In this document: one piece after another, positions 2,780 to 60,999 of the stretch | How the letters are laid out: every line of letters starts with the position of its first letter | How positions within the stretch are numbered: position 1 is the first letter of the stretch | DNA from: a virus | Lineage: Duplodnaviria > Heunggongvirae > Uroviricota > Caudoviricetes | IMG/VR virus record: IMGVR_UViG_3300044630_003672 | Length of the DNA stretch: 64,000 nucleotides | Reading direction: 5' to 3' (one strand) | Translations under genes and position numbers: made by a program | Notes under the pieces: model-generated | What the model saw: the letters and a program-made list of their open reading frames with translations, nothing else | What the model was told of the DNA's origin: nothing | The model's database searches: none

Positions 2780-3166
2780 GGGGATGCCATGGATTTGATT
2801 GCGATGAGAATGGTAGTACCACACGTAGACAGAAGTGCTAGATGTCTTTAAATCTGTACAAAACAATAACTGACGTAGAATTATCTACTTGGACCTTTGA
2901 TGATGTAATGTCATTCATGGGTGCTGATTTAGCTGTAGCAGCCTAATCACCTCCCGTATCACTCATGGGGTTTAAAAAAGAAGTGAACAAAAAGGAGCTC
3001 TACCTATCGGCTCTCTAAAACTGATAGGTTGGTGGAAAGCTGTACTAACCATACGGCCCCAATTATTTTGGAAAGTAAATAAGATTAAACTTTATCCTAA
3101 ACGTGTGACATGCTGGTATTATGATTACTTCGTAAGACAGGGGTTCGATTCCCCTCATCTCCACCA
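2780..3166 (+). ncRNA. ssrA: tmRNA (transfer-messenger RNA)
   Basis: 5' GGGGATG pairs with 3' CATCTCC-A-CCA and includes the G3.U alanine identity pair. T-arm AGGGG-TTCGATT-CCCCT, encoded CCA followed by a T-run, internal tag ORF ending in AA-stop. Confidence 0.95.
2872..2946 (+). other. tmRNA tag reading frame (A)DVELSTWTFDDVMSFMGADLAVAA*
   Basis: Resume codon placed after AATAACT by analogy to typical upstream context; 24 codons ending LAVAA-TAA. Confidence 0.75.
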
Positions 3167-40726: not shown

Positions 40727-41356
40727 ATGATAAATGTTACATACGCCATTACAGTTTGTAATGAAATAAATGAAATCACAACTTTAGTTGATTTCCTACA
40801 ACCTAGGATAAAATCCGAAGATGAAATACTGGTTCAGTATGATTCCGATTCTGCAACATCGCAGATAAAAGATTATTTAAATATAATCTCACAAATACAT
40901 AAGAATATAAGAGTAATTTCATTTCCTCTTAATAAAGATTTTGCATCATTTAAGAATAATTTAAAAAATAATGCAAACGGTATTTTTATTTTTCAAATTG
41001 ATGCAGATGAAATGCCATCCGAATATTTGGTTGAAAATATTCACAACTTTTTAGATTATAATAAAGATGTAGACCTTTTCTTCGTACCTAGAATTAATAC
41101 GGTGAATGGTTTAACTGCCGAACATATTAAGAAATGGGGATGGAAAGTTAATGAAAACGGTTGGGTAAATTTTCCTGACTATCAAACTCGTATTTATAGA
41201 AGAACTTCTGAAATAGAATGGAGTGGTAAGGTACATGAAAGGATAGCGGGATATAATACATTATCAATATTACCTCAGGAAGAAATTTATTGTTTGTATC
41301 ATCATAAGCAAATTGAAAGACAAGAAAAACAAAACGCTTTATATGATACAATCTAA
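40727..41356 (+). CDS. Glycosyltransferase family 2 (GT-A)
   Basis: YAITVCNE, FQIDADE (DxD), PDYQTRIY, WSGKVHE. Confidence 0.88.
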   Translation: MINVTYAITVCNEINEITTLVDFLQPRIKSEDEILVQYDSDSATSQIKDYLNIISQIHKNIRVISFPLNKDFASFKNNLKNNANGIFIFQIDADEMPSEYLVENIHNFLDYNKDVDLFFVPRINTVNGLTAEHIKKWGWKVNENGWVNFPDYQTRIYRRTSEIEWSGKVHERIAGYNTLSILPQEEIYCLYHHKQIERQEKQNALYDTI

Positions 41357-42344
41357 AATAGCCTTCCTTACTGAAATGGGGTTTATTGGTAAAATACCGG
41401 CACATCATCCAAATATGAGAACCGAATTTGCTTGGATGCACGCTTTAGACGCAGACCATTATAATATTCATCTATTTGGTGCGGATAAACATTTGATTAA
41501 TTATGACCATGTGTTTATTATATTTCCAAAAGGCAAAGTATTTTTAAGTGCAGAGGGAAGTAAAATTATAGATGGTATTAATCCATTTTCAGAATTATTA
41601 CAACAAGATATAGTTGGTAAATTGAAGGAAAGAGGTAATAAGAAAGTCCATTATATTCAAGAAGGACCGCATTGGTGGTATAATGATTATACTATATCAG
41701 ACCAAATCTATTTCTTTAATTTCTTACAATCATGTGATTCAATCTTTACGCACAATGATTCAGATATATATTATTATAAGGGATTGTTTCCTAATAAAAA
41801 AGTAAGACCTATCGGTACATTGATGATTGATACTCTAATCAAAGACATAGTACCAACAAAAGAAGATAAGGCAATTATAGGTGGTAACTTCGCAAGATGG
41901 TATGGTGGGTTTGAAAGTTATATGATAGCTGGTAACTTTGATGTTCCTATTTGGGCACAAACATCTCATGCTATGAGAGAGAATGAAAATGTAATTGATA
42001 ACTTAACTCACTTACCAAGATTAATGTGGAGTGAATGGATGACCGTATTATCAACATTCAAATACGCAGTTCATATGATGCCAACGGTAGCAGCTGGTAC
42101 GTTTGCCCTAAATTGTGCATACTTTGGTATCCCTTGTATTGGAAATCAAGATGTAGATACACAATTACTTTGTCACCCATCCTTATCGGTAGCTGTAAAT
42201 GATTTAGAAAGTGCAAGAGAATTGGCAATAAGATTGAGAGATGACAAACAATTTTACAATGAATGTTCAGAAATGGCAAAGGCTAATTATGAAGCTTGTT
42301 TTTCAAAAGAACTTTGGTTAAAAAGAATAATGACAGAATTATGA
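41343..42344 (+). CDS. Putative glycosyltransferase (GT-B-like)
   Basis: C-terminal AGTFALNCAYFGIPCIG resembles the GT-B sugar-donor helix; operon context. Confidence 0.55.
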   Translation: MIQSKIAFLTEMGFIGKIPAHHPNMRTEFAWMHALDADHYNIHLFGADKHLINYDHVFIIFPKGKVFLSAEGSKIIDGINPFSELLQQDIVGKLKERGNKKVHYIQEGPHWWYNDYTISDQIYFFNFLQSCDSIFTHNDSDIYYYKGLFPNKKVRPIGTLMIDTLIKDIVPTKEDKAIIGGNFARWYGGFESYMIAGNFDVPIWAQTSHAMRENENVIDNLTHLPRLMWSEWMTVLSTFKYAVHMMPTVAAGTFALNCAYFGIPCIGNQDVDTQLLCHPSLSVAVNDLESARELAIRLRDDKQFYNECSEMAKANYEACFSKELWLKRIMTEL

Positions 42345-43111
42345 TAACAGTTATATTAAATGGTTACAAAAGAGCGGAAAATCTTAATGAACAATTAGAG
42401 GCATTAAGAAACCAAACGGTTCAGCCGGATGAAATACTTTTTTGGTATAATAATCCTGGTGATAATGACCTGATTAATTATGATATTGGTACTGAAATAG
42501 CGGGTGCTTATTGTAATTACAACTTCGGTGTATGGGCACGATTTGCTTTTGCATTTATGGCTAAAAATCCATATGTTTGTATTTTTGATGATGATACTAT
42601 ACCTGGTTCAAAATGGTTAGAGAATTGCATGAATACAATGAAAACGAATGAAGGACTATTGGGTACGGTTGGATTAATTTATCCACAACCACTTCCACCG
42701 GAACAATCATCATACTACGAACCATATGCTAGAGTTGGTTGGCCTGAAGGTGGAAATAATGAACATACATTAGAAGTTGATTTGGTTGGGCATAGTTGGT
42801 TCTTTAAAAAGGAATGGTTATCTCATATGTGGAGAGAACAACCTGAATCTAAATATAATACCTGTGGTGAAGATATGCACTTCTCATATATGTTGCAGAA
42901 GTATGCGGGAATTAAAACATTTGTACCACCACATCCAAAGAATGATAAACAAATGTGGGGAAGTATAAAAGGAGCACAATATGGTGGCGATGCTAACTCA
43001 CTATGGGAATCAAATCAGAGAAGTGTGGAAGGTGTACCATTTAGAGCATTGATGAATGAATATTTTCATAACCAAAGAATGAAAGGTTGGAAACTTGTAT
43101 ATGAAAAATAA
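42341..43111 (+). CDS. Putative GT-A glycosyltransferase
   Basis: ILNGYKR, CIFDDDTIPG (DxD), CGEDMHFS. Confidence 0.75.
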   Translation: MITVILNGYKRAENLNEQLEALRNQTVQPDEILFWYNNPGDNDLINYDIGTEIAGAYCNYNFGVWARFAFAFMAKNPYVCIFDDDTIPGSKWLENCMNTMKTNEGLLGTVGLIYPQPLPPEQSSYYEPYARVGWPEGGNNEHTLEVDLVGHSWFFKKEWLSHMWREQPESKYNTCGEDMHFSYMLQKYAGIKTFVPPHPKNDKQMWGSIKGAQYGGDANSLWESNQRSVEGVPFRALMNEYFHNQRMKGWKLVYEK

Positions 43112-43113
43112 AC

Positions 43114-43710
43114 ATGAAAACGGCAATTGTTATACAAGGTAGCACTATTTGTGATAATATAGAAAAATTGAAAAATGATTGGAAACCATTTCCTATTATT
43201 TTTTCAACATGGGAAGGGGAGCCAACCTATTGTTATCCGGATAAAAACGATGTGGTTGTATATAGCCCTAGACCAGAAATAGTTGGAGTTGGTAATTTAA
43301 ATTTACAAAGAGTATCGTCTTTAAATGGATTTATAAAGGCAAAAGAACTGGGATACGATAGAGTTGTAAAGTGGAGATATGATTTGTTCCCAATCAATTG
43401 TGAAGAAATATTTAAATCGTTTAAAAGTGATTGTTTAAATTTTCTAGCATATCACCAACATAATGCCGGATATTTGGTAGATTATTTATCGGAAGGAAAT
43501 GTTGATGATATGATTCAATTATTTACATTTTCAGATTTTAATGTACCACACGCAGAAGTTGCATTTACAAATAGATTGTTTGAGCTTGGATTTGATAAAA
43601 AAATCAATTTCATTCTCAAAAATCTAGAAAAAGATAGAGTTGACATTTATTGGCAAAAATATAACAATTATTTGAGTCATTATAAAAACATAGAAGCATT
43701 TAAAACGTAA
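43114..43710 (+). CDS. WavE-like putative transferase
   Basis: TAIVIQG, NLNLQRVSSLNG, VVKWRYD. Confidence 0.55.
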   Translation: MKTAIVIQGSTICDNIEKLKNDWKPFPIIFSTWEGEPTYCYPDKNDVVVYSPRPEIVGVGNLNLQRVSSLNGFIKAKELGYDRVVKWRYDLFPINCEEIFKSFKSDCLNFLAYHQHNAGYLVDYLSEGNVDDMIQLFTFSDFNVPHAEVAFTNRLFELGFDKKINFILKNLEKDRVDIYWQKYNNYLSHYKNIEAFKT

Positions 43711-43713
43711 CAA

Positions 43714-44442
43714 ATGAGAAAAGTTAATGTAATAATACCGATGGCCGGCGAAGGTAAACGATTTTCCGATGTAGGATATACGATACCAAAACCATTTATT
43801 CCGGTAAACAAAAAACCAATGGTACAATCAGTTGTTGAAAATCTAAATATAGATGGGAAACATATTTTTATAATTCAAAAAAAGCATTCAGTAGGAAATA
43901 GTTTACAAACCTTTTTAAAATCACTAAAACCCGATTCGGTTGTAATTGAAATAGATGAATTAACAGAAGGACCAGCATGTACCGCATTGTTAGCTAGTGA
44001 TTATATAGATGAAGATACTCCATTGATTATTGTTAATTGTGACCAAATGATACATGATTTTGATGTTAATAAACTTTTAGAGTTTTGTGACAAAAATGAA
44101 GCAGATGGTATATTAGGTGCATTTATATCATCATCAAAGAAAAATTCATATATGAAATTAGACCCACAAGGTGAGGTTACTGAAGTTAAAGAAAAGATTG
44201 TAATCAGTAATACTGCAACTAATGGATTACATTTTTGGAAACATGGAAAAGATTTCGTATCTTCGGCAAAAGAAATGATAGAATCTGGTGAAAGGTATAA
44301 TAACGAATTTTATATAGCACCATCATACAATTATCTTATTAAAGATGGGAAAAAAATATTACCATTCTTTTATAACTTACATTGGCCAATTGGTGTACCA
44401 GAGGATTTAAATAAATACAAACAATTATATGGACATTCTTAA
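43714..44442 (+). CDS. NDP-sugar pyrophosphorylase-family nucleotidyltransferase 1
   Basis: IPMAGEGKRF, PKPFI, EGPACTAL, NCDQ, NNEFYIAP. Confidence 0.88.
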   Translation: MRKVNVIIPMAGEGKRFSDVGYTIPKPFIPVNKKPMVQSVVENLNIDGKHIFIIQKKHSVGNSLQTFLKSLKPDSVVIEIDELTEGPACTALLASDYIDEDTPLIIVNCDQMIHDFDVNKLLEFCDKNEADGILGAFISSSKKNSYMKLDPQGEVTEVKEKIVISNTATNGLHFWKHGKDFVSSAKEMIESGERYNNEFYIAPSYNYLIKDGKKILPFFYNLHWPIGVPEDLNKYKQLYGHS

Positions 44443-44749
44443 AATGAAAGACATGAAAGGTGGATGGTTTATTGGTAACTTTGAACCAACTGCTTTTAAA
44501 ACAGACCAGTTTGAGGTTTGTTATAAACACCACACTAAAGGTGAAAAATGGGATACTCATTATCACAAAGCTGGTACTGAAATAAATTATTTGGTTAGTG
44601 GAAAAATGACCATACAAGACAAAGAATTAAATGAAGGTGATATCTTTATTTTAAACCCATACGAAATTGCTGACCCAATCTTTTTAGAAGATTGTACAGT
44701 CTTAATTATAAAAACTCCGTCAATACCTGGCGATAAATACGTTATATAA
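44429..44749 (+). CDS. Cupin-fold protein (putative sugar isomerase/epimerase)
   Basis: GWFIGNFEP, HYHKAGTE metal-binding motif; 106 aa. Confidence 0.75.
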   Translation: MDILKMKDMKGGWFIGNFEPTAFKTDQFEVCYKHHTKGEKWDTHYHKAGTEINYLVSGKMTIQDKELNEGDIFILNPYEIADPIFLEDCTVLIIKTPSIPGDKYVI

Positions 44750-44750
44750 T

Positions 44751-45941
44751 ATGGTAAATATTTTTAGAAAAGAAGTAGATATAGAAAAGTACTTTATTGT
44801 TACTTATGATTTGGCATCTGAAACTAATTTAAGAGATGCCGCTTGGAATTTGGCAATAGGCCAAAGTGTAGGTAATCCAAATGTAAGAAATCAATGGGAA
44901 ACTGATGAGCTATTTGAGAGAAATAGTTGTTTAGTATTGGGAGATGAAGATGAGCTTAAATCTATTAATAATGGATTAGTTAAGGTAGCGTTTCCTGTTA
45001 TAAACATTGATTTTAAAACGGATGGGATTGCACATTTGTTGGTAAATATTATGGGTGGGCAGATGGATATTGATAATATTACAAAATGTGCTGTTAAAGA
45101 TATCTGGTTTCCACAACATATTGAAGATTTATTTTTAGGACCTAAATTTGGTATTAAAGGTATTAGAGAATACACTAAAACATTTGATAAACCGTTGTTT
45201 GGTGCAATTGTGAAACCTAAAATTGGTATCACTCCGCAGACATTATTAGAGATGGTTAAAGAATTAGTAGAAGGTGGCGTTAATTTCATTAAAGAAGATG
45301 AGATTATGAGTAATCCCGCTTTTTGTACAATTGAAGAAAGAGTACCATTGATTGCAGAATATTTAAAAGATAAAAATGTAGTTTATTGTGTATCTATTCA
45401 TTCAGATTATCCACATATTTTAGATAGAGTAAAGAGAGTATATGAGTTGGGTGGTAATGGTGTTCATATTAATTTTTGGTGTGGTATGGGGGTTTATAAG
45501 GCTGTAAGAGAATTAGACTTACCAATATTTGTACATTTTCAAAAAAGTGGTGATAAAATTCTAACCAATAGAAATCACGCTTATTATATTGATTGGACGG
45601 TAATTTGTAAGTTAGCAGGTATGATGGGTGTTGATTTTATTCACGCCGGAATGATTGGTGGATATTACAAATGGCCTGAAGATGAGGTAATTGATTCAAT
45701 GAAAGTATTGCACCAATATGGTGTAATGCCGGCATTAAGCTGTGGTTTCCATCCTGGTCTTACTCAATGGGTAACTGATAAAGTTGGTATTGATTATATG
45801 GCAAATGTTGGTGGTGCACTTCATGGGCATCCTGATGGTACTTTGGCTGGTGCAAAAGCTATGAGGCAGAGTATAGATAAAGAATATGGTAGAGAATACA
45901 ATAAAGCAATTCAAAAATGGGGAGTAAATAAAAATGAATAA
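44751..45941 (+). CDS. RuBisCO-like protein (form IV, RLP)
   Basis: IVKPKIG (K175/K177), GVNFIKEDE (carbamate Lys motif), DFIHAG, GGALHGHPDGTLAGAKAMR. Carboxylase residues E60, N123, H294 and K334 appear substituted. Confidence 0.92.
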   Translation: MVNIFRKEVDIEKYFIVTYDLASETNLRDAAWNLAIGQSVGNPNVRNQWETDELFERNSCLVLGDEDELKSINNGLVKVAFPVINIDFKTDGIAHLLVNIMGGQMDIDNITKCAVKDIWFPQHIEDLFLGPKFGIKGIREYTKTFDKPLFGAIVKPKIGITPQTLLEMVKELVEGGVNFIKEDEIMSNPAFCTIEERVPLIAEYLKDKNVVYCVSIHSDYPHILDRVKRVYELGGNGVHINFWCGMGVYKAVRELDLPIFVHFQKSGDKILTNRNHAYYIDWTVICKLAGMMGVDFIHAGMIGGYYKWPEDEVIDSMKVLHQYGVMPALSCGFHPGLTQWVTDKVGIDYMANVGGALHGHPDGTLAGAKAMRQSIDKEYGREYNKAIQKWGVNKNE

Positions 45942-46938
45942 GAAAGACCCAATATTAATATGTTTTGGTACTAGACCAGAATGGTTGAAAGTAAAACCAT
46001 TGATTGATATTATGGATAAGAAAGAATATAAACTTTTATTCACAGGTCAACATGAAGATTTACTTTCGGATGTAAAAGTTGATTTTAGAGTTAATATAAA
46101 AGAATCCTTTCGTTATACTAGATTAGATTCTATTATGATTAGTTGTATGGAATATTTTCCAAATTACAAATTTAGAGGTGTGTTGGTGCAAGGCGATACG
46201 GCTTCCGCTTTTGCATGTGCATTAGCAGCTTATCATAGAGGTATTAAGATATATTATATGGAAGCTGGGTTAAGGAGTTACGATTTAGAAAACCCATATC
46301 CTGAAGAAGGATATAGACAGATGATAGCTCGTTTAGCAGATATTAATTTTGCACCAACACAGCTTTCTGCTGAAAATTTAGATGCGGAAAGAGTAAAAGG
46401 AGATATCCATATAGTTGGGAATACTGTATTGGATAATCTTATGAAGTATGATAAAGGTAGTTATGGTGATACTATTCTAGTAACAATGCATCGTAGAGAA
46501 AATCATCATTGGTTAGATGAATGGTTTAATGTAATTAATCAGTTAGCAATTGATTATCCACAATACAAATTTGTATTACCGATTCATCCAAATCCAAACG
46601 TACAAAAGCATAAGAATTTACTAACAAATATTAATATCGTAGAACCTTTAACGCACAATGAAACGATTAATATTCTTAAAGATTGTAAGTTGGTAGTTAC
46701 CGATAGTGGTGGATTGCAAGAAGAAGGTTCTTTCTTTAATAAGAAAATAATTGTGTGTAGAAAAACAACCGAAAGACCTGAAGGTATAAAAACCGGTCAT
46801 CTTTATATGTGCGAAGAACCAACTAAACTTAAAGAATTATTTGGTGAGTTGGAAAAGAATTCGTATATTTGTAAACCTTGTCCATATGGAGACGGTAGAG
46901 CAGCGGAAAAAATTAAAAAGATATTAGATGCAGAATAA
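45934..46938 (+). CDS. wecB: UDP-N-acetylglucosamine 2-epimerase
   Basis: GTRPE, QGDT, EAGLRS, PEEG, HRREN, DSGGLQEE, PYGDG. Confidence 0.93.
   Translation: MNKKDPILICFGTRPEWLKVKPLIDIMDKKEYKLLFTGQHEDLLSDVKVDFRVNIKESFRYTRLDSIMISCMEYFPNYKFRGVLVQGDTASAFACALAAYHRGIKIYYMEAGLRSYDLENPYPEEGYRQMIARLADINFAPTQLSAENLDAERVKGDIHIVGNTVLDNLMKYDKGSYGDTILVTMHRRENHHWLDEWFNVINQLAIDYPQYKFVLPIHPNPNVQKHKNLLTNINIVEPLTHNETINILKDCKLVVTDSGGLQEEGSFFNKKIIVCRKTTERPEGIKTGHLYMCEEPTKLKELFGELEKNSYICKPCPYGDGRAAEKIKKILDAE
46840..46871 (+). promoter_or_regulatory. Intragenic Bacteroidota-type promoter inside wecB
   Basis: ATTTGGT: TTTG(46840)-N20-TATATTTG(46864), with the same CG before the -7 box as the intergenic copies. Confidence 0.7.
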
Positions 46939-47650: not shown

Positions 47651-48338
47651 ACTACCGTTAGTAATATACACGCATACGGATATGAAAGATGTATGGCCAT
47701 CTTTTTTTGGGCAATTAAATAAATTTATGCCTGATTATAAACTCTATGTATGTGTTAATGAAATTGATAAGGCACTTCCAGAAAATTGCTTACAAATCAC
47801 ATATGATGATTCTAAAAAATATACAAATCGTATTTTAGAATGTTTGGATAAAATAAATGAAGATGTGATATTATTTTTTCACGAAGATATGATTTTATAT
47901 TCCAATCCACTTCACGTATATTTAGAAAAATATTATGAATATATTTTAACCGATAAAGCTAATAGTATAAAATTATTATATGCTGGTTCGGGTGGAACAA
48001 AATCGGAATTTGAAGATACTTTGGTTCAAAATGATTTATCTAAATTTTCAATACAACCAACTATTATTAAAACTAAAACATTTAAGGAGTTAATAGAAAA
48101 TCATTTAGAATTAACAATTTATGAATTTGAAGATTCTATAAAGTTGAATGAAAAAGATTTTTCAGCAACGAATGGTATTGAGAAAAAAAGAGGAATATTC
48201 CATTATGATAGTTTTGTATTTCCATACATAGCAACTGCGATTAATAAAGGTAAATGGAATTTAACAGAATATCAAACCGAATTAAATCCTATTTTTGAAG
48301 AATATAATATAAACCCGTTTGATAGAGGAATTTGGTAA
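47643..48338 (+). CDS. Putative GT-A-like glycosyltransferase
   Basis: LFFHEDMIL acidic motif; operon context. Confidence 0.5.
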   Translation: MNKLPLVIYTHTDMKDVWPSFFGQLNKFMPDYKLYVCVNEIDKALPENCLQITYDDSKKYTNRILECLDKINEDVILFFHEDMILYSNPLHVYLEKYYEYILTDKANSIKLLYAGSGGTKSEFEDTLVQNDLSKFSIQPTIIKTKTFKELIENHLELTIYEFEDSIKLNEKDFSATNGIEKKRGIFHYDSFVFPYIATAINKGKWNLTEYQTELNPIFEEYNINPFDRGIW

Positions 48339-48339
48339 T

Positions 48340-49716
48340 ATGACAAAATTAATTATCTTTGACTTAGATGGTGTACTAGTTGAAGCAAAAGAAATACACT
48401 ACAATACATTAAACCAGGCATTGAGAGAAATCGAAATTCTAACTGGTAATTCTTATGTAATTACCGAAGCTGAACATCTATCAATATACGATGGATTAAA
48501 GACAACTCAAAAGCTTGAAATGCTTACTAAAAATAAAGGGTTACATACCGATTTCTATGATGAAATTTGGTATAGAAAACAACACTTAACTATTGAGGCA
48601 ATATCCCAATTACAAACTAATCATGTATTGGTTTCGGTATTCAAAGAGTTGAGAGATAGAGGTTATCAATTAGCATGTGCTTCAAATTCAATTAGAAGGT
48701 CTGTATTGGTTATGTTATCAAAGATAGGACTTATTGAGTATATGGATTTAATCCTTTCTAATGAGGATGTAAAGAACTCTAAACCACATCCTGAAATGTA
48801 TTGGAAGGCTATGAGTATGATGGGTGTATTACCAGAAGAAACGTTAATTGTAGAAGATTCACCACCCGGTTTGTTAGCTGCGAGTAGAAGTAGAGCAAAT
48901 GTTTTGAGAGTAGATAATCCACATGATTTGACATTAGAAAAAATAGTAAACAAATTAAACGAAAAGAAAGTTATGAGTAAACCAAAATGGCAAGGTGGTA
49001 AGATGAACGTACTTATCCCAATGGCAGGTGCAGGAACTAGATTTCAACAAGCCGGATATACGTTCCCTAAACCACTAATTGATGTGGAAGGTAAACCAAT
49101 GATTCAGGTTGTAGTTGATAACCTAAACATAGATGCTACATTTATCTATGTAGTTCAGAAATCACATAGAGAGAAGTATAACTTGGATACCCTTTTAAAC
49201 TTAATTACGCCTAATTGTAAGATTGTGGAAGTTGATGGATTGACAGAAGGTGCAGCATGTACTACTCTATTGGCAAAAGAATTGATTGATTCCGATGCAC
49301 CTTTATTGATGGCAAACTCTGACCAATTTATAGAGTGGGATTCAAATGAGTTTATGTATAAGATGATTGAACAAAAAGTTGATGGTGGTATCCTTTCATT
49401 TCATTCAACTCATCCTAAATGGTCATTTGCTAAAGTGGATGAGTATGGTTATGTAACCGAAGTACAAGAGAAGAATCCAATTTCAGATATAGCAACTGTT
49501 GGTGTTTACTATTGGGCTAAAGGTTCTGATTATGTAAAGTATGCAGAACAAATGATTAATAAAAATATAAGAGTAAATAATGAATTCTATGTTTGTCCTG
49601 TTTTCAATGAAGCAATTGGTGATGGTAAAAAAATAAAAACATTCAATATTGAAAAAATGTGGGGATTAGGTACACCTGAAGATTTAAAATATTACCTAGA
49701 AAATTACAATAAATAA
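48340..49716 (+). CDS. Fusion of HAD phosphatase and NDP-sugar nucleotidyltransferase 2
   Basis: FDLDGVL, ASNS, KPHP, VEDS (HAD); IPMAGAGTRF, EGAACTTL, NSDQ, NNEFYVCP (paralog of 43714). Confidence 0.9.
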   Translation: MTKLIIFDLDGVLVEAKEIHYNTLNQALREIEILTGNSYVITEAEHLSIYDGLKTTQKLEMLTKNKGLHTDFYDEIWYRKQHLTIEAISQLQTNHVLVSVFKELRDRGYQLACASNSIRRSVLVMLSKIGLIEYMDLILSNEDVKNSKPHPEMYWKAMSMMGVLPEETLIVEDSPPGLLAASRSRANVLRVDNPHDLTLEKIVNKLNEKKVMSKPKWQGGKMNVLIPMAGAGTRFQQAGYTFPKPLIDVEGKPMIQVVVDNLNIDATFIYVVQKSHREKYNLDTLLNLITPNCKIVEVDGLTEGAACTTLLAKELIDSDAPLLMANSDQFIEWDSNEFMYKMIEQKVDGGILSFHSTHPKWSFAKVDEYGYVTEVQEKNPISDIATVGVYYWAKGSDYVKYAEQMINKNIRVNNEFYVCPVFNEAIGDGKKIKTFNIEKMWGLGTPEDLKYYLENYNK

Positions 49717-49727
49717 ACTTATAAACT

Positions 49728-50420
49728 ATGATGTTAGATTTTAACCAATTGTTAGAAAAATACAATATTAAAATAAATGGTGTTCTACACGTTGGGGCAC
49801 ATGAAGGCGGTGAAACGTTAGCTTATGTAAAAGCTGGTATAAAAGATGTGATACTCGTTGAAGCAAATCCATTTAGATTCAGCAATTTAAGCGAATCATT
49901 AAATACCGGTAGATATGTTACTTGGTGTTCACCACTTACATATTCTTATTTTAACGATAGTGAAGCCCAAATTCTAAAAGGATACAAAGCATATAACTAC
50001 GCAGTTAGCGATAAAGAAGATGGTGTTATTACTTTTAATTTGAGTAACTACGATGGTGGTACTGATTCTATTTTTAAAATCAATGAGTGGGGTAGAGATT
50101 CATCTTGGGTACCGTATGAACATATTGCTGAAATTGAAGTACCAACCATTACATTAGATAAATTGGTTGAAAATAAAAATACTTACAATTTCTTAAATAT
50201 GGATGTTGAAGGTGCTGAGTTGATTGTTTTAAGTGGAGCTACCGAAGTATTAAAGCATTTAGATTGTATTATGTTAGAAACACAGGATAAAATAAGATTT
50301 GAAGGTTCTTGTACTAGAGAACAATTGATTGAATTTTTAAAACCACATGGATTTGAACTTAAAGAGTATCATGATACTGGTAAAGAGTGGGGTGATTGTC
50401 TTTTTTTAAAAAATAAATAA
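49728..50420 (+). CDS. FkbM-family O-methyltransferase
   Basis: VLHVGAHEG, VEANP, LNMDVEGAE. Confidence 0.88.
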   Translation: MMLDFNQLLEKYNIKINGVLHVGAHEGGETLAYVKAGIKDVILVEANPFRFSNLSESLNTGRYVTWCSPLTYSYFNDSEAQILKGYKAYNYAVSDKEDGVITFNLSNYDGGTDSIFKINEWGRDSSWVPYEHIAEIEVPTITLDKLVENKNTYNFLNMDVEGAELIVLSGATEVLKHLDCIMLETQDKIRFEGSCTREQLIEFLKPHGFELKEYHDTGKEWGDCLFLKNK

Positions 50421-51580
50421 TGAATAGAAAAATTACATTTTGCATACCATCTAAAAACAATCTTCGTTATCTTAAAAATAGTATTCAATCTATTAAAGCA
50501 AATAGTTTACATCAAAACGAAATTATAGTATATGTGGATGCGGATAACGATGGTACAAAAGAATGGTTAGATGAAAATCGTATAAAGTATTTGGTTAATG
50601 ATACCGATACACCGAAGGGAATTGCGTATGGATACAATAGATGTATTGAAGCAGCAACTACACCAATAGTATGTATGTTTCATGCCGATATGTACATGGG
50701 GCAGTGGTTTGATGATGCTATATTAAAACATCTAAAACCACTTTCGGTAGTTAGTGGTACTCGTATAGAACCACCACTACATCCAAAGGGATTAGAAAAG
50801 ATTGTAGAAGATTTTGGTATGTATCCAGAAGATTTCAAAAAAGCAGAATTTGATAAGTTTGTTTATGAGATGAGATATGTGTATGAAGGAAAAACAACTA
50901 AAGGAATATTTGCACCTTGGGCAATATATAAAGAAGATATTACCTCAATTGGTATGCATGATGAGAGATTTCATTCTTATCACGAAGATTCTGATATATT
51001 TAATCGTTTTATTTTAAATGGTTATGAGATAATTCAAACGTGGGAAGCATTGGTATATCATTTGACATGTAGAGGTGGACAATTTCAAGATGGAATTGAA
51101 CAGGTAACCAAAGATGAAGCATTTCATAAAATGAAAAATAGTGCATTTAAAAACTATATTAGAAAATGGGGACATTTTGTTAAAAACGATGAATACCAAC
51201 ATCCGATTATACCACATAAATACGATATATGTTTTAACATAAAAAACACAAAAATAGAAGCATTGGATTTTTTAGAACCTTGGTGTTCAAATATCAAAAC
51301 AGATTTATCGCAAGAAAAAATAAATGAGTTCATCTCAAAACAACAAGATGGATGTATTGTACCATTGATTGATAAAATAAATAACGCAACTGAAAGTGAT
51401 ATTGAAATTGAATTTGATATAAATCAAATTACACAAGAAGCAATAAATTTTATAGTTGATTTGAGTTTAATTTTAGATGATAATCAATTAGAAAAAGGAG
51501 AATATCAGTTTGGTATTTTCAAATTTAAAGTAAATAGAATTTATCATATGGAAACCGAACTAATAAAATATAATATCTAA
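50420..51580 (+). CDS. Glycosyltransferase family 2
   Basis: CIPSKNN, DNDGT, FHADM, EDSD. Confidence 0.85.
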   Translation: MNRKITFCIPSKNNLRYLKNSIQSIKANSLHQNEIIVYVDADNDGTKEWLDENRIKYLVNDTDTPKGIAYGYNRCIEAATTPIVCMFHADMYMGQWFDDAILKHLKPLSVVSGTRIEPPLHPKGLEKIVEDFGMYPEDFKKAEFDKFVYEMRYVYEGKTTKGIFAPWAIYKEDITSIGMHDERFHSYHEDSDIFNRFILNGYEIIQTWEALVYHLTCRGGQFQDGIEQVTKDEAFHKMKNSAFKNYIRKWGHFVKNDEYQHPIIPHKYDICFNIKNTKIEALDFLEPWCSNIKTDLSQEKINEFISKQQDGCIVPLIDKINNATESDIEIEFDINQITQEAINFIVDLSLILDDNQLEKGEYQFGIFKFKVNRIYHMETELIKYNI

Positions 51581-54181: not shown

Positions 54182-54652
54182 ATGATATATTGGTTTACAG
54201 GACAACCGGGTGCCGGAAAAACTATTCAGGCTACAAAACTTAGAGAATTTCTTCAAACTGAAAAACGTAATTGGAGAAAAGACGTATTTCACATTGACGG
54301 TGATGATTTGAGAGAATTGACACTTAACAAAGATTATTCAGAAACAGGTAGAGTGCAAAATATAAAGAACGCACAATTAATTGCTTTTTTCTTAAATGCA
54401 AAAGGATGTGATGTTGTTGTATCATTGGTATCGCCGTACAAGGAATTAAGAGAAGAATTTAAAACTGAATGTGGAGAGAATATTGTTGAAATATATGTAC
54501 ACACAACTCGTAAAAGAGGTAGAGAAGAATTCAAAGTACAGGAGTATGAAGCACCTGAAGTGAATTTTTTTGATATGAATACTACATCGGAAACTCCAAT
54601 ACAATCTTTCACCAAATTAATACATTTTTTGAAAGATACAAATAAGTTATAA
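54182..54652 (+). CDS. cysC: Adenylylsulfate kinase (CysC)-like kinase
   Basis: WFTGQPGAGKT, IDGDDLR, VSLVSPY, YEAP. Confidence 0.8.
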   Translation: MIYWFTGQPGAGKTIQATKLREFLQTEKRNWRKDVFHIDGDDLRELTLNKDYSETGRVQNIKNAQLIAFFLNAKGCDVVVSLVSPYKELREEFKTECGENIVEIYVHTTRKRGREEFKVQEYEAPEVNFFDMNTTSETPIQSFTKLIHFLKDTNKL

Positions 54653-58570: not shown

Positions 58571-59344
58571 GTGATGGAAGATGTTACGGTTATTATTCAA
58601 GGAAGATTACTACCTGAATGTTATGAATTTTGGATAAAGAATTATAAAGATTGTCCTGTCATACTTTCAACTTGGGTAGATACTGAAATAGATTTTAAAA
58701 ATTTACCTGAAAACTTTACCGTATTACTCAGTCCATATCCTTTTGATTTTGGTGCACAAAATCTCAACCTTCAACTAATATCAACTTTAACTGCATTAAA
58801 ACGGGTTGAAACAAAATATGTTATAAAATTAAGAGGAGATGAATATTACTCCAATTTACAATATATTAGAAATTCTATATTAGTTGAACCGCACAAAATA
58901 CACACATCACCTATATTTTTTAGAGCATGGGAATATGCGGAATACCACATATCAGACCATATTGTTGCGGGAACTTTGGAAAATATGTTAGTTATGTTTG
59001 GTGAAACTAAATATAATTTTGATACTGGTAAAGTAAATATTTCTAAATGGAAAGTGGATGGTAAATTTCATAAATGGGTTACCACACATGCGCCGGAAGA
59101 AAGAATTACTAAATCATATTTAAATGCAAAAGAACCATTTAGATTTGAGAAAGTTGATGGTAGAATTATAATGATGGAGCATTTTAATATTTTAGATATT
59201 GAATTACTTCATCCTTATAAAATTAAAGCAAATCTATTTAGAAAAGAATGGACGAGTGGATTTATACCTGAAAGAAATTTTAGTATATCTAGAATAGAAC
59301 AACTATTTGCAGATGACCCTTATAAACGAAATGACGAGAAATGA
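58571..59344 (+). CDS. WavE-like putative transferase
   Basis: VTVIIQG, NLNLQLISTLTAL, YVIKLRGDE, YHISDH. Confidence 0.6.
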   Translation: MMEDVTVIIQGRLLPECYEFWIKNYKDCPVILSTWVDTEIDFKNLPENFTVLLSPYPFDFGAQNLNLQLISTLTALKRVETKYVIKLRGDEYYSNLQYIRNSILVEPHKIHTSPIFFRAWEYAEYHISDHIVAGTLENMLVMFGETKYNFDTGKVNISKWKVDGKFHKWVTTHAPEERITKSYLNAKEPFRFEKVDGRIIMMEHFNILDIELLHPYKIKANLFRKEWTSGFIPERNFSISRIEQLFADDPYKRNDEK

Positions 59345-59808
59345 TTTATATATCACATAGAGGAAACGTAAACGGAAAAATAGAAGAAGCTGAAAATAAG
59401 CCAGAATATATTGATGATGCACTTCAAATGGGATTTGATGTTGAGGTTGATGTTTGGTACATAGATGGTAAATGGTGGCTGGGGCATGATGGTCCGCAAT
59501 ACGAAATAGATTTTAATTGGATAGACGATAGAAGTGCTAGAGTATGGGTACATTGTAAGAATAAGCAGGCTGTTGAATACCTTACTGAAAACGATTATGA
59601 GGCGGCCAATATTAATTGGTTTTGGCATGAGGAAGATACAATGACTTTGACATCGTTTAATTATGTTTGGGTTTATCCTGGTAAACAACCGATTAAGAAA
59701 AGTATAGCCGTAATGCCTGAAATATACAACGATGACGTTTCCAAATGCAGCGGAATATGTTCAGATTATATTCAAAAATACAAAGATGAGAATTTATCCA
59801 CCAAATAA
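59341..59808 (+). CDS. Small glycerophosphodiester phosphodiesterase (GDPD)-like protein
   Basis: ISHRG, PENK-like AENKPE, DVEVDV, WVHCKN, GICSD. Confidence 0.75.
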   Translation: MIYISHRGNVNGKIEEAENKPEYIDDALQMGFDVEVDVWYIDGKWWLGHDGPQYEIDFNWIDDRSARVWVHCKNKQAVEYLTENDYEAANINWFWHEEDTMTLTSFNYVWVYPGKQPIKKSIAVMPEIYNDDVSKCSGICSDYIQKYKDENLSTK

Positions 59809-60187
59809 AATTTATATTTCAAAAAGTCCTGTACATGGATATGGTATATTCGCAAATGAAATAATAGATGCGAATGAAATTATAGAAGAATGCCCTATAT
59901 ATGATTTAAAAATTCAAAAAGGAGAAATGAGTCCCTTAATGAATGATTATCGTTTTAACTGGCCACAAGGTGCTGGTTCGGAATGGCAAAAGCAGGTTTT
60001 GGCATGGGGATATGGGTGTTTATATAATCATTCTGAAAGTGCAAATGCATATTGGCGTTCTAATTTAGAAAAAGAAACATTTGAGTTTGTTTCCAATAGG
60101 CGAATTGAAAAGGATGAAGAAATATTTGTTTGGTATGGTGGTGTGAATTATTGGCAAGATGGTAGAACTAATACGAATGTAATATGA
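59786..60187 (+). CDS. SET-domain lysine methyltransferase
   Basis: SPVHGYGIFA, LYNHSESAN, EEIFVWYG. Confidence 0.88.
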   Translation: MRIYPPNKIYISKSPVHGYGIFANEIIDANEIIEECPIYDLKIQKGEMSPLMNDYRFNWPQGAGSEWQKQVLAWGYGCLYNHSESANAYWRSNLEKETFEFVSNRRIEKDEEIFVWYGGVNYWQDGRTNTNVI

Positions 60188-60999
60188 GAGTAGCGTTATG
60201 TTTTTCAGGTCATATGAGAGACCTAAATGAAACTAAAAATTTTTGGACAGAGCTTATTAAGAAGTATGATATAGATGTATATGCTTCTTTTTGGGATATT
60301 GAAAATCCTGAATTAGGCGATACTATAAAAGAATTTGAAAAAGTATATACTCCTAAACGTTTGGAAGTAGAAAGTTATGATATCTTCAAACAAACCACAC
60401 AGGATTTCGCATCCATGCACATACAATCGCCAACAAATATAGATTTACTTTTTCAGAATACAACTAAAGCGTTTGGGCAACTATCTATGTACTATAAAGT
60501 ATGGAGAGCAAATATGTTATCAAAACAATTAGGAATTGAATATGATATTGTTATACGAACTCGTATTGATATTGTATTAGATGAAAATTTTGAGCTTCAA
60601 TTAAACAATTATTTAAATGTACCAATGGGCAGAGTACAATCTTATACTTGGTCAAATAATTTTGGAATCAATGATTGTTTTGCGTATGGTAGGCCAAAAA
60701 TAATGGATTATTATTCTTTTATATTTTTACAAATGATGGAATACTTAAAACAAGGACACTATGCATTTCCACCCGAACATTTTTTATCGGTACATTTTAG
60801 TAAGATAAAAATGGAAATAAGAGAATTTCCAAATTATATGATTATAACTAGGATATCCAAAGGAACTCAACATGAAGTGTATAACAAATTTATATCACCA
60901 CCTAGAGAAGAAATTCTATGGAGTGATAGGACTGAATTTTTACCGGACCCAAATGGTAGTTTTAAAAAGAGTTCTATAAAAGATGATTTTAACGTTTAA
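60184..60999 (+). CDS. Putative glycosyl/phospho-transferase-like protein
   Basis: RVALCFSGHMR, YDIVIRTRID, INDCFAYG, PEHFL. Confidence 0.5.
   Translation: MRVALCFSGHMRDLNETKNFWTELIKKYDIDVYASFWDIENPELGDTIKEFEKVYTPKRLEVESYDIFKQTTQDFASMHIQSPTNIDLLFQNTTKAFGQLSMYYKVWRANMLSKQLGIEYDIVIRTRIDIVLDENFELQLNNYLNVPMGRVQSYTWSNNFGINDCFAYGRPKIMDYYSFIFLQMMEYLKQGHYAFPPEHFLSVHFSKIKMEIREFPNYMIITRISKGTQHEVYNKFISPPREEILWSDRTEFLPDPNGSFKKSSIKDDFNV

What the first reader, a model, noticed from the sequence alone, without database searches (positions are those of the whole stretch)
43114..46938. Phage-encoded RuBisCO-like protein in a nucleotide-sugar operon: candidate new pathway to an unusual sugar
Seen: tightly coupled WavE-like / nucleotidyltransferase / cupin / RLP / WecB genes. 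The RLP keeps K175, K177, the carbamylated Lys motif (IKEDE), H327 and the C-terminal phosphate loop. By my alignment it has Q for E60, Q for N123, Q-K for H294-R295 and no K334, so it should not fix CO2. Established: characterised RLPs catalyse enolisation-type reactions in methionine salvage and in catabolism of acid or branched sugars (tetronate, apiose, hamamelose). Inference: here an RLP works biosynthetically, with the cupin, to isomerise or rearrange a ketose phosphate into a rare, possibly branched, monomer. The adjacent NTase would activate it and the WavE-like protein transfer it to a glycan. I know of no characterised phage RLP pathway like this.
Basis: partly seen in the sequence, partly recalled or inferred. 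Interest (0 to 1): 0.9.

Follow-up and report, generated by a model that had tools for sequence, protein, structure and literature searches.

The report
Phage RuBisCO-like enzyme, sugar-activation cassette
A freshwater phage carries an intact relative of RuBisCO that cannot fix CO2 and sits next to, or elsewhere is fused to, a sugar-activating enzyme in phages, SAR11, Legionella and tiny archaea, so it most likely helps make an unusual activated sugar unit for a surface glycan, a job not yet described for this enzyme family.

Summary
Confirmed. Window 44751-45941 encodes an intact 396-aa RuBisCO-like protein (PF00016, 115 bits; dN/dS 0.05-0.10). It is packed behind a sugar nucleotidyltransferase (NTase) and a 106-aa metal cupin in a freshwater phage glycan island.

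It keeps K175, K177, K201-D203-E204, H327 and the glycine phosphate cup. It has G(Q), N-P, G(Q), Q and Y at E60, T65-W66, N123, H294 and K334, so it is not a carboxylase.

It falls in a well-separated clade that fits the 'form IV-like' phage/Beckwithbacteria RLPs of Jaffe et al. The clade stands apart from MtnW, OiaX-like and form III.

- The NTase lies within 4 kb of the RLP in 61/62 non-redundant viral and 43/47 cellular loci, among them a complete Pelagibacter genome, Legionella, DPANN, CPR and Nonomuraea.
- Natural RLP-NTase, GDPD-RLP and NTase-cupin fusions exist.
- A 150-aa mini-GDPD is a fourth partner (53/62). Here it lies at 59341-59808.
- The WecB and WavE-like neighbours are not conserved.
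- Paralogous NTases are fused to RpiB, RibB or HAD phosphatases, and Legionella adds LicD.

Best reading: an enolising isomerase or epimerase makes an unusual sugar or ketol phosphate, and the NTase activates it for a glycan. The chemistry is untested. The scan reached the same reading on at least 18 other genomes.

The parts
43114..43710 (+). 198-aa WavE-like paralogue, a putative glycan transferase. It is local to this island and not part of the conserved cassette.
   Evidence: It has no Pfam or PHROG hit. It is 27% identical (E 2e-11) to the window's PF07507 WavE-family protein. Its family lies near the RLP in only 4 loci.
43714..44442 (+). Sugar-phosphate nucleotidyltransferase, 242 aa. 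It is the nearly universal partner of the RLP.
   Evidence: PF00483 52.7 bits and phrog_3980 200 bits. The closest PDB sequences are NDP-sugar pyrophosphorylases, ST0452 and RmlA. It lies within 4 kb of the RLP in 61/62 viral and 43/47 cellular clusters. It is fused to the RLP in P0122 and its cluster. dN/dS is 0.09-0.27.
44429..44749 (+). Minimal metal-binding cupin, 106 aa, probably a sugar-phosphate aldose-ketose isomerase.
   Evidence: phrog_24762 124 bits. H44, H46 and E51 are invariant. The AF2 model has pLDDT 97. The best structural matches are Thermococcus minimal phosphomannose isomerase (7zvm/7zvy, E 1e-6, TM 0.68) and the C-terminal PMI cupin of ManC/XanB/AlgA. It is present in 50/62 viral clusters and fused to the NTase in 5 loci.
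44751..45941 (+). RuBisCO-like protein, 396 aa, of the 'form IV-like' clade. Non-carboxylating; predicted Mg2+/carbamyl-lysine enolising isomerase or epimerase.
   Evidence: PF00016 114.8 bits. It scores below every NCBIfam equivalog cut-off. The clade is separated from the rest at 99% SH-aLRT. dN/dS is 0.05-0.10. There are more than 2600 homologues.
45934..46938 (+). Non-hydrolysing UDP-GlcNAc 2-epimerase (WecB). It is a neighbour in this island and not a conserved cassette member.
   Evidence: TIGR00236 229.2 bits against a cut-off of 210; PF02350 231 bits. It lies near the RLP in only a few loci: L003, L010, L011, L015.
48319..49716 (+). HAD (beta-PGM-like) domain fused to a paralogous NTase: a second sugar-activation module.
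   Evidence: HAD_2 104 bits plus PF00483 41.7 bits; phrog_3980 267 bits. The same fusion sits in the Pelagibacter heptose/LPS locus next to the RLP.
58571..59344 (+). WavE-family protein, 257 aa. Its end overlaps the start of the mini-GDPD gene by 4 nt.
   Evidence: PF07507 40.7 bits. WavE-like genes recur in viral and cellular RLP loci.
59341..59808 (+). Mini-GDPD, a 155-aa compact glycerophosphodiester-phosphodiesterase-like enzyme. It is the fourth conserved member of the cassette, here displaced 13 kb downstream of the RLP.
   Evidence: It has no Pfam hit. The invariant residues H6, R7, E18, N19, E35, D37 and H49 form GDPD-type motifs. The AF2 model has pLDDT 96. VIA gives Z 10-11 to GDPDs over 145-151 of 155 residues. 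It lies within 4 kb of the RLP in 53/62 viral clusters. It is fused to the RLP in P0150/P0285.
60184..60999 (+). DUF7796/WavE-like protein, 271 aa. Its family often lies next to the mini-GDPD and is fused to it once.
   Evidence: Atlas feature hits to DUF7796 clusters score 0.97. Homologues occur near the RLP in about 25 loci, and a GDPD fusion is seen in L007.
40727..43111 (+). GT2 (40727-41356), unknown 343-aa ORF, GT2 (42296-43111): the upstream part of the glycan island.
   Evidence: PF00535 30.5 and 33.2 bits.
49728..51580 (+). FkbM-type methyltransferase (49728-50420) and GT2 (50420-51580): the downstream part of the glycan island.
   Evidence: PF05050 59 bits; PF00535 46.7 bits.

Best explanation
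**What it is.** The ORF is a functional, non-carboxylating RuBisCO-like enzyme of the 'form IV-like' clade. It keeps the carbamylated-lysine/Mg2+ centre (K181, D183, E184), K155/K157, H298 and the glycine phosphate cup. It should therefore still bind a phosphorylated keto-sugar and abstract a proton next to the carbonyl, which is RuBisCO's first partial reaction. It lacks the residues needed to add CO2.

**Proposed role (inferred).** It epimerises or isomerises a ketose phosphate, most likely a pentulose-type one. The small PMI-like cupin interconverts ketose and aldose forms. The adjacent NTase couples the resulting phosphate to an NMP, giving an NDP-activated unit.

**Installation (inferred).** That unit is put onto a glycan by enzymes that handle phosphodiesters or sugars: the mini-GDPD with WavE/DUF7796 proteins in phages and most cells, and LicD in Legionella. 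In this phage the glycan would be the one built by the 12-kb glycosyltransferase/methyltransferase island beside the collagen-like fibre gene.

**Shown versus inferred.** Shown: the conservation of the gene, the active-site pattern, the clade, and the gene linkage and fusions. Inferred: the substrate, the order of the steps, the nucleotide used and the glycan target.
For: **Fold, selection and active site**
- PF00016 115 bits.
- dN/dS 0.05-0.10.
- The active-site signature is uniform across 26 clade members.

**Separate clade**
- Separated at 99% SH-aLRT from labelled form III, MtnW, OiaX-like and DeepYkr-like representatives.

**Linkage**
- In 62 non-redundant viral clusters: NTase 61, mini-GDPD 53, cupin 50.
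- NTase in 43/47 cellular clusters.

**Rosetta-stone fusions**
- RLP-NTase: 667-671 aa, a cluster of 128 members drawn from Tara, MGnify, JGI and ENA.
- GDPD-RLP: 546 aa, on 4 contigs.
- NTase-cupin: 5 loci.

**Glycan context**
- Sugar O-methyltransferases (CmcI/TylF/FkbM), SDR epimerase/dehydratases, GT2 and WavE.
- The Pelagibacter complete genome places the cassette in the heptose/LPS locus with GmhA, RfaE-like genes and GT9.
- Nonomuraea has RLP-cupin-NTase-GT2.
- Four Legionellaceae have LicD-RLP-NTase and lack the GDPD. LicD proteins transfer phospho-alcohols from CDP conjugates (PMC4873967).

**Sugar-phosphate chemistry**
- Paralogous phage NTases are fused to RpiB (phage Bellamy), RibB (S-SKS1), HAD or PNKP-like phosphatases, and the cupin.
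- The cupin resembles the PMI domains of ManC/AlgA.
- CDP-D-xylulose is a known donor precursor (PMC13576159).

**Weak hint of expression**
- One 171-nt contig from a metatranscriptomic library is identical across the cupin/RLP junction. DNA carry-over is not excluded.
Against: - No substrate, product or nucleotide is known. No member of the clade has been assayed.
- The NTase looks by sequence like a sugar-1-phosphate enzyme (RmlA/ST0452-like). The RLP phosphate cup, by analogy with RuBP, binds a phosphate on a primary carbon next to the carbonyl. The two therefore may not act on the same phosphate ester without a further step.
- 22 of 79 cupin-anchored loci keep NTase, cupin and GDPD without any RLP within 9 kb. 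The RLP is thus an optional module, not the heart of the scaffold.
- The deepest clade member (P0135, 40% identity) sits in a catabolic cluster with an FGGY kinase, transketolase, aldolase and an ABC transporter, and has no NTase.
- The role of the mini-GDPD is open.
- In this window the GDPD is 13 kb away, so the cassette is split.
Confidence: 0.6

Rival explanations
1. Same cassette, opposite order. The NTase first makes an NDP-sugar or NDP-ketose. The RLP then acts on that nucleotide-linked substrate as an enolising keto-isomerase or epimerase, in the way cupin and SDR enzymes act on NDP-4-keto sugars.
For: RLP-NTase fusions allow channelling in either direction. SDR epimerase/dehydratases recur in the loci. 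The P2-site residues are remodelled (R295->K/R, H298->D/E/I), which could make room for a nucleotide. SAR11 and DPANN loci carry two different NTases flanking the RLP.
Against: All characterised RLPs and RuBisCOs act on small phosphate esters, not nucleotide conjugates (established knowledge). The glycine phosphate cup is unchanged.
Confidence: 0.15
2. The cassette makes a nucleotide-linked small molecule that is not a glycan precursor. Examples would be a donor for DNA or protein modification, or a compound that interferes with host defence or signalling.
For: It combines an NTase with a phosphodiesterase, enzyme types common in nucleotide-signal metabolism. Some viral loci lie among nucleotide-metabolism genes such as PhoH, ThyX and MazG (L001).
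Against: Cellular copies sit in LPS or glycan loci: the Pelagibacter heptose cluster, Legionella LicD with a Wzy-like gene, Nonomuraea GT2. Viral neighbours are sugar O-methyltransferases, glycosyltransferases and WavE.
Confidence: 0.1
3. An auxiliary salvage or catabolic enzyme. As in the MTA-isoprenoid shunt (DeepYkr RLP plus cupin) or methionine salvage (MtnW, HAD MtnX, cupin MtnD), the RLP and cupin would recycle SAM or nucleoside by-products such as MTRu-1-P, 5-deoxyribulose-1-P or pentose phosphates during infection.
For: RLP plus cupin is a proven pair in R. rubrum and R. palustris (PMC5893883). HAD enzymes are nearby. The deepest clade member is in a catabolic sugar cluster next to a cPGI-type cupin. 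The island has many SAM-dependent methyltransferases.
Against: The RLP is not in the MtnW or DeepYkr-like clades. NCBIfam MtnW scores are 149 against a cut-off of 409 and 125 against 513. H294 is kept in every outside representative tabulated, including the MtnW and DeepYkr-like ones, but is Q here. No MtnA, MtnB, MtnK or MtnP family matched among the ORFs of the 32.5-64 kb stretch that were scanned; the unscanned ORFs there and the rest of the window were not checked. Fusion to an NTase has no role in salvage. The phage cupin HMM does not detect the bacterial cPGI cupin.
Confidence: 0.07
4. A true CO2-fixing RuBisCO (form III-like) that supplies 3-phosphoglycerate during infection.
For: The best NCBIfam hit is type III RuBisCO (178.8 bits). 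The carbamylation motif and K175 are kept.
Against: The score is far below the cut-off of 497. K334, E60, T65, W66, N123 and H294 are all replaced, uniformly across the clade. No phosphoribulokinase, R15P isomerase or AMP phosphorylase family matched among the neighbouring ORFs that were scanned.
Confidence: 0.01

Closest known systems
'Form IV-like' RuBisCO-related proteins of phages and Beckwithbacteria (Jaffe, Castelle, Dupont & Banfield; bioRxiv 10.1101/386292, also PMC6389311)
   Same: They are divergent RLPs on IMG/VR myovirus-type contigs and in Beckwithbacteria. They branch outside the other RLP clades and conserve the key residues only in part. My genome scan recovers a Beckwithbacteria homologue (54% identity) with the same neighbours, and the clade is separated at 99% SH-aLRT.
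   Different: That paper leaves the function open, and its text does not mention nucleotidyltransferases or glycosyl genes. Shown here: the NTase/cupin/mini-GDPD linkage, the fusions, and the spread to SAR11, Legionella, DPANN and actinobacteria. Their sequences were not compared directly.
DeepYkr RLP (5-methylthioribulose-1-P 1,3-isomerase) plus cupin methylsulfurylase of the MTA-isoprenoid shunt (R. rubrum, R. palustris; PMC5893883)
   Same: An RLP is encoded next to a small cupin. The RLP enolises a ketose phosphate and moves the carbonyl, and the cupin acts on the product.
   Different: It is a different clade with different active-site residues: H294 is kept there and is Q here. Its role is sulfur salvage, with no NTase, GDPD or glycan genes. 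The cupins are not shown to be related.
Type II bifunctional phosphomannose isomerase / GDP-mannose pyrophosphorylase (ManC, XanB, AlgA)
   Same: An N-terminal NTase is followed by a C-terminal PMI cupin. Here the order is the same, as adjacent genes and as fusions in 5 loci. The phage cupin's best Swiss-Prot structural matches are exactly those C-terminal domains (E 1e-6, TM 0.63-0.65).
   Different: Identity is only 15-21%. There is no PF01050 hit. No phosphomannomutase was identified in the loci examined. The RLP and mini-GDPD partners have no counterpart in GDP-mannose synthesis.
CDP-polyol / CDP-ketose donor systems with LicD-type phosphotransferases (TarI/TarJ CDP-ribitol; S. pneumoniae CDP-D-xylulose to CDP-D-arabinitol; ISPD with FKTN/FKRP; PMC4873967, PMC13576159)
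   Same: A pentulose or pentitol 5-phosphate is activated by an NTase, then transferred together with its phosphate to a glycan. Legionellaceae pair the RLP and NTase with LicD. GDPD enzymes act on that kind of phosphodiester.
   Different: The NTase here is closer to RmlA/ST0452-type sugar-1-P enzymes than to IspD/TarI: E 1e-13 to 1e-6 for the sugar-1-phosphate NTase models (NF041173, TIGR01208, NF049965) against 6e-3 for IspD. No reductase is conserved. LicD is absent from all phage loci.
MtnW (DK-MTP-1-P enolase) and the catabolic RLPs of apiose/acid-sugar pathways (OiaX family)
   Same: They share the superfamily and the Mg2+/carbamyl-lysine enolisation chemistry on a mono-phosphorylated keto compound.
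   Different: The scores are below both equivalog cut-offs: 149 against 409 and 140 against 700. The clades are separate. Those enzymes are catabolic or salvage enzymes, whereas this one is wired to a biosynthetic NTase.

Membership tests
RuBisCO large-subunit superfamily | Catalytic TIM-barrel domain matching PF00016 above the gathering score | tested here: met
   114.8 bits against a cut-off of 30.1, residues 134-376. 98 PDB RuBisCO/RLP sequences match at E<=1e-10.
RuBisCO large-subunit superfamily | N-terminal domain (PF02788) | tested here: inconclusive
   19.5 bits against a cut-off of 20.7, residues 15-123. The region aligns over its full length with the Geobacillus and Thermococcus proteins.
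Bona fide RuBisCO (forms I-III) | Carbamylated K201 with Mg2+ ligands D203 and E204, plus K175 | tested here: met
   K181, D183, E184 and K155 are invariant in the clade.
Bona fide RuBisCO (forms I-III) | Carboxylation and P1/P2 residues E60, T65, W66, N123, H294, R295, K334 | tested here: not met
   The residues here are G37, N42, P43, G103, Q264, K265 and Y305. TIGR03326 scores 178.8 bits against a cut-off of 497.
MtnW, DK-MTP-1-P enolase (IV-YkrW) | Score above the NCBIfam equivalog cut-off and placement in the MtnW clade | tested here: not met
   NF007095 149.3 against 409; TIGR03332 125.3 against 513.6. The MtnW representative P0230 lies on the other side of a 99% SH-aLRT branch.
OiaX-type catabolic RLPs | Score above the NF042437 cut-off | tested here: not met
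   139.7 bits against 700. The OiaX-like representative P0221 lies outside the clade.
'Form IV-like' phage/Beckwithbacteria RLP clade (Jaffe et al.) | A divergent clade outside the other RLPs, found on phage contigs and in Beckwithbacteria | tested here: met
   A 27-member clade at 99% SH-aLRT. 187 IMG/VR matches. A Beckwithbacteria MAG homologue at 54% identity with GDPD, cupin and NTase neighbours.
Sugar-phosphate nucleotidyltransferase (PF00483), for ORF 43714-44442 | HMM match above the gathering score | tested here: met
   52.7 bits against 21.2. No NCBIfam equivalog cut-off is reached, so the substrate is unassigned.
GDPD (PF03009), for ORF 59341-59808 | Pfam HMM match | tested here: not met
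   No Pfam family at E<=0.05.
GDPD (PF03009), for ORF 59341-59808 | GDPD catalytic motifs (HR, EN, ExD, second His) and the PLC-like barrel fold | tested here: met
   H6, R7, E18, N19, E35, D37 and H49 are invariant in 45 sequences. VIA gives Z 10.3-10.9, rmsd 3.3-3.7, with 144-151 of 155 residues aligned to GDPDs. DPANN loci carry a full-length PF03009 GDPD instead (82.9 bits).
Type II PMI cupin (ManC/AlgA C-terminal domain), for ORF 44429-44749 | Cupin with metal ligands and structural match to PMI domains | tested here: inconclusive
   The HxHx4E motif is invariant. Foldseek gives E 1e-6 and TM 0.63-0.68 to Thermococcus PMI and to the ManC/XanB/AlgA cupins. Other cupins (KdgF, quercetinase, DddQ) score almost as well, and there is no PF01050 hit.
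WecB, non-hydrolysing UDP-GlcNAc 2-epimerase, for ORF 45934-46938 | Score above the TIGR00236 equivalog cut-off | tested here: met
   229.2 bits against 210.15.

The most novel reading that the evidence does not exclude
A whole clade of the RuBisCO superfamily, abundant in aquatic phages and present in SAR11, Legionella, CPR bacteria and DPANN archaea, is a biosynthetic enzyme. It would enolise a pentulose or ketose phosphate and convert it, by 3-epimerisation, carbonyl migration or even skeletal rearrangement, into a rare sugar or ketol phosphate. That product would be nucleotide-activated and attached to surface glycans, probably through a phosphodiester. This would be the first anabolic, glycan-building role for the RuBisCO fold, and it would point to an undescribed sugar in the envelopes of some of the most abundant organisms in water.
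Probability: 0.5. Interest if true: 0.85.

Novelty: new variant of a known kind. Interest (0 to 1): 0.75.

Why it matters
All characterised RuBisCO-like proteins work in salvage or catabolism. The function of the large phage 'form IV-like' clade has been open since it was reported.

The conserved wiring to a nucleotidyltransferase, including natural fusions, gives a concrete and testable hypothesis, and it names culturable systems in which to test it:
- Legionella nautarum, L. drozanskii and L. maceachernii
- a Pelagibacter isolate with a complete genome
- Nonomuraea rosea
- cyanophage Bellamy, as the control that lacks the RLP

If the hypothesis holds, three things follow. It adds an anabolic reaction class to the RuBisCO superfamily. 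It predicts an unknown glycan component on SAR11, DPANN/CPR cells and phage-modified surfaces. It also bears on how phages remodel receptors or decorate virion fibres.

Tried and rejected
**Searches that found nothing useful**
- tblastn of the RLP against 50,697 GenBank phage records gave no match, and the RLP has no PHROG family. No cultured-phage example was found; the window's own record may be masked.
- The window's assembly is not held. The nearest viral record, G001 (a fragment estimated 37% complete), has no RLP, which is uninformative.
- The control genomes of the genome search are not returned as loci, so named reference RuBisCOs could not be added to the tree. Clades were labelled through NCBIfam instead.
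- The search for related loci with the mini-GDPD alignment failed because no stretch was conserved enough.
- The look-up of the Azospirillum RLP found no exact record.
- Literature searches returned nothing relevant: 'IV-GOS' (one unrelated review), RuBisCO-like + nucleotidyltransferase + sugar (none), IV-like + RuBisCO + phage from 2019 (none), and RLP with Legionella or Pelagibacter.

**Tests that were inconclusive**
- Foldseek of the mini-GDPD model against PDB gave only weak rows (best E 0.009). The VIA second look was clearer.
- The promoter and terminator scan of 39-54.5 kb was not above the shuffles (89 against 99.6; 4 against 4.5), so the transcription unit is not defined.
- Expression: no RNA holder was listed for the 3.8-kb stretch. 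One metatranscriptomic run held a small share. When laid, it gave short contigs, of which only one (171 nt, 44663-44833) is identical. DNA carry-over is not excluded.

**Ideas considered and set aside**
- Homology between the phage cupin and the bacterial cPGI-type cupin next to P0135: the phage cupin HMM does not detect it.
- The carboxylase reading and the MtnW reading were rejected on residues, scores and the tree.
- Complex prediction was not used, because the report does not claim that the proteins bind.

Full report
**Observation.** They are packed with 1-3 nt gaps or 8-14 nt overlaps.
- 43714-44442 is an NTP_transferase (PF00483, 52.7 bits).
- 44429-44749 is a 106-aa cupin.
- 44751-45941 is a RuBisCO large-chain homologue (PF00016, 114.8 bits, E 6e-33).
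- 45934-46938 passes the WecB equivalog cut-off (229 against 210 bits).
- The 198-aa ORF at 43114 has no family hit. It is 27% identical (E 2e-11) to the window's real WavE-family protein at 58571-59344.

**The window is a phage.**
- It is 32% G+C and every long ORF of 200 aa or more lies on the + strand.
- It has a DnaB helicase, ribonucleotide reductase, a T4-type PolB (47.7% identical to Microcystis phage Mel-JY01), a collagen-like tail fibre and a tmRNA.
- Near-identical DNA occurs in lake and freshwater metagenomes from more than a dozen studies.

**Active site.** I aligned the protein to T. kodakarensis RuBisCO and within a 116-sequence alignment.
- Kept: K175, K177, K201, D203, E204, H327, S379, G381 and G403/404 (window residues K155, K157, K181, D183, E184, H298, S330, G332, G354/355).
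- Replaced: E60->G37 (Q38 follows), T65-W66->N42-P43, N123->G103 (Q104 follows), H294->Q264, R295->K265, H298->D268, K334->Y305, G380->C331.
- This pattern is almost invariant in 26 clade members.
- The gene is under strong purifying selection (dN/dS 0.05-0.10).

**Place in the superfamily.**
- The protein scores below every NCBIfam equivalog cut-off: type III 179/497, MtnW 149/409 and 125/513, OiaX 140/700.
- In a tree of 116 representatives it falls in a 27-member clade separated by a 99% SH-aLRT branch from the other 89.
- Those 89 include representatives that I labelled through NCBIfam as true form III, MtnW, OiaX-like and DeepYkr-like.
- The clade fits the 'form IV-like' phage/Beckwithbacteria RLPs reported by Jaffe et al., who left the function open. 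My genome scan recovers a Beckwithbacteria homologue with the same neighbours.

**Gene linkage in viruses.** I fetched 82 viral loci carrying homologues of 56-94% identity and grouped them into 62 clusters at 95% RLP identity.
- The NTase lies within 4 kb of the RLP in 61 clusters.
- A roughly 150-aa protein family lies there in 53, the cupin in 50, and all three in 40.
- The 150-aa family has no Pfam hit but carries invariant GDPD motifs: HR, EN, ExD and a second His. It folds with pLDDT 96 into a compact GDPD barrel (VIA Z 10-11 over 145-151 of 155 residues).
- In this window its only copy is at 59341-59808, overlapping the end of the WavE-family gene by 4 nt, 13 kb from the RLP.
- WecB and the 198-aa WavE-like gene accompany the RLP in only about four loci.
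- The usual downstream neighbours are sugar O-methyltransferases (CmcI, TylF, FkbM), SDR epimerase/dehydratases, WavE/DUF7796 proteins and glycosyltransferases.

**Fusions.**
- RLP-NTase proteins of 667-671 aa form a 128-member cluster seen in Tara, MGnify, JGI and ENA assemblies.
- A mini-GDPD-RLP protein of 546 aa is on four contigs of up to 63 kb.
- NTase-cupin proteins of about 350 aa occur in five loci.
- One mini-GDPD-DUF7796 fusion exists.
- Together these tie all four enzymes into one pathway.

**Beyond phages.** A scan of one genome per prokaryotic species found 50 loci.
- They include a complete Pelagibacter chromosome (59% identity), many SAR11 single-cell genomes, DPANN archaea and CPR bacteria.
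- They also include a Verrucomicrobiae chromosome, four Legionellaceae, Nonomuraea rosea and Azospirillum.
- The NTase lies within 4 kb of the RLP in 43 of 47 non-redundant clusters.
- In Pelagibacter the pair lies inside the heptose/LPS locus: GmhA-type SIS, RfaE-like kinase and adenylyltransferase, GT9, and the same HAD-NTase fusion as at window 48319-49716.
- In Nonomuraea the order is GDPD | RLP-cupin-NTase-GT2.
- Ten DPANN-type loci carry a full-length PF03009 GDPD instead of the mini form.
- The four Legionellaceae have LicD-RLP-NTase and lack both the GDPD and the cupin.
- LicD proteins transfer an alcohol together with its phosphate from CDP conjugates (PMC4873967).

**What the partners say about the chemistry.**
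- The cupin model (pLDDT 97) best matches the minimal phosphomannose isomerase of Thermococcus.
- Among reviewed proteins it best matches the C-terminal PMI cupin of ManC, XanB and AlgA. Those are NTase-cupin fusions in the same domain order as here. Other cupins score nearly as well, so this is a lead and not a proof.
- Homologues of the NTase in cultured cyanophages are fused to RpiB (Bellamy) and to DHBP synthase RibB (S-SKS1), both of which act on ribulose/ribose 5-phosphate.
- Bellamy then has the cupin (45% identical), a DUF7796 protein, more NTases, a class II aldolase/epimerase-family protein, a mini-GDPD and a GHMP kinase, but no RLP.
- In a cupin-anchored scan, 57 of 79 viral loci have the RLP. 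The other 22 keep the NTase and/or mini-GDPD beside the cupin. In most of them an NTase carries a C-terminal PNKP-like HAD phosphatase domain.
- The NTase/cupin/GDPD scaffold is therefore the constant part. The RLP is one of several interchangeable sugar-phosphate-transforming modules.
- The deepest clade member (P0135, 40% identity) sits in a bacterial catabolic cluster with an FGGY kinase, split transketolase, class II aldolase, a cPGI-type cupin, glycosidases and an ABC transporter. That again points to pentose or ketose phosphates. It also shows that the clade is not exclusively biosynthetic.

**Mechanism proposed.**
- Shown: an intact Mg2+/carbamyl-lysine centre and phosphate cup; loss of the CO2-addition residues; obligatory association with an NTase in glycan loci.
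- Inferred: the RLP enolises a phosphorylated ketose and reprotonates it to give an epimer or a carbonyl-shifted isomer. This is the chemistry of RuBisCO's first step and of the DeepYkr 1,3-isomerase (PMC5893883).
- Inferred: the cupin interconverts aldose and ketose forms, and the NTase makes the NDP derivative.
- Inferred: the unit is installed by the mini-GDPD with WavE/DUF7796 proteins, or by LicD, possibly as a phosphodiester. CDP-D-xylulose shows that a ketopentose can be carried as a CDP conjugate on the way to a glycan donor (PMC13576159).
- Open points: which phosphate ester the NTase uses (by sequence it resembles sugar-1-P enzymes); whether the RLP acts before or after activation; and what the GDPD does.

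**Novelty and standing.**
- Phage RLPs are known. The cassette, its fusions, its cellular distribution and a biosynthetic role are not in the searchable literature.
- The scan's own notes show that other agents reached the same reading on at least 18 other genomes. I saw those notes after my own analysis.
- Points I did not see in those summaries: the displaced GDPD of this window, the RpiB/RibB/phosphatase swaps, the LicD-for-GDPD pattern and the PMI-domain match.
- One 171-nt contig from a freshwater metatranscriptomic library is identical across the cupin/RLP junction. This is a weak hint of expression only.

Noticed in passing
window 2780-3166 (+): ARAGORN calls a tmRNA gene with a 24-residue tag peptide ending in AVAA in this phage.
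   Followed up: no
window 48319-49716 (+): A beta-phosphoglucomutase-like HAD domain is fused to a paralogue of the cassette NTase. The same fusion sits beside the RLP in a complete Pelagibacter genome.
   Followed up: partly
window 54182-54652, 57004-57795, 59732-60187, 61214-61960 (+): An APS-kinase-like P-loop kinase, an AAA_33 kinase, a SET-domain protein wedged between the mini-GDPD and the DUF7796 gene, and a sulfotransferase-family protein lie downstream of the glycan island.
   Followed up: no
protein P0185 (583 aa, metagenomic): An N-terminal TIR domain is fused to a RuBisCO-superfamily protein that lies outside the phage clade. This architecture could link RuBisCO-type chemistry to a defence or NAD-related function.
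   Followed up: no
proteins P0157, P0201 (726 and 742 aa): An IF-2B family domain, the family of ribose-1,5-bisphosphate isomerase, is fused to a form III-like RuBisCO that keeps E60, N123, H294 and K334. This would put two steps of the AMP pathway in one polypeptide.
   Followed up: no
L004 (Synechococcus phage Bellamy, MF351863.1 161.8-171.5 kb); L005 (S-SKS1, HQ633071.1): Cultured cyanophages carry the NTase/cupin/DUF7796/mini-GDPD scaffold without an RLP. The NTase is fused to RpiB in Bellamy and to DHBP synthase in S-SKS1. GenBank annotates the Bellamy fusion only as 'phosphatase' and the cupin, DUF7796-like and mini-GDPD genes as hypothetical proteins.
   Followed up: partly
L157, L163, L175, L177, L199, L204, L213 (IMG/VR loci): In cassettes without an RLP, the NTase is 355-367 aa long. 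Its C-terminal 120-aa domain resembles the HAD phosphatase domain of polynucleotide kinase-phosphatase (Pnkp1, E 9e-6).
   Followed up: partly
L086 (MAG GCA_023488455.1, JAMDDV010000006.1): The deepest member of the clade is in a bacterial sugar-catabolic cluster. The cluster has an AKR, a class II ketose-bisphosphate aldolase, GntR, an FGGY kinase, a split transketolase and a cPGI-type cupin. It also has a GH127-like hydrolase with a faint aceric-acid-hydrolase hit, and an ABC transporter.
   Followed up: partly
L036, L037, L068, L069, L083, L084 (IMG/VR records named GVMAG): Several RLP cassettes, including most of the NTase-cupin fusions, lie on contigs that IMG/VR labels as giant-virus MAGs. 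Whether these are phages or eukaryotic viruses was not checked.
   Followed up: no
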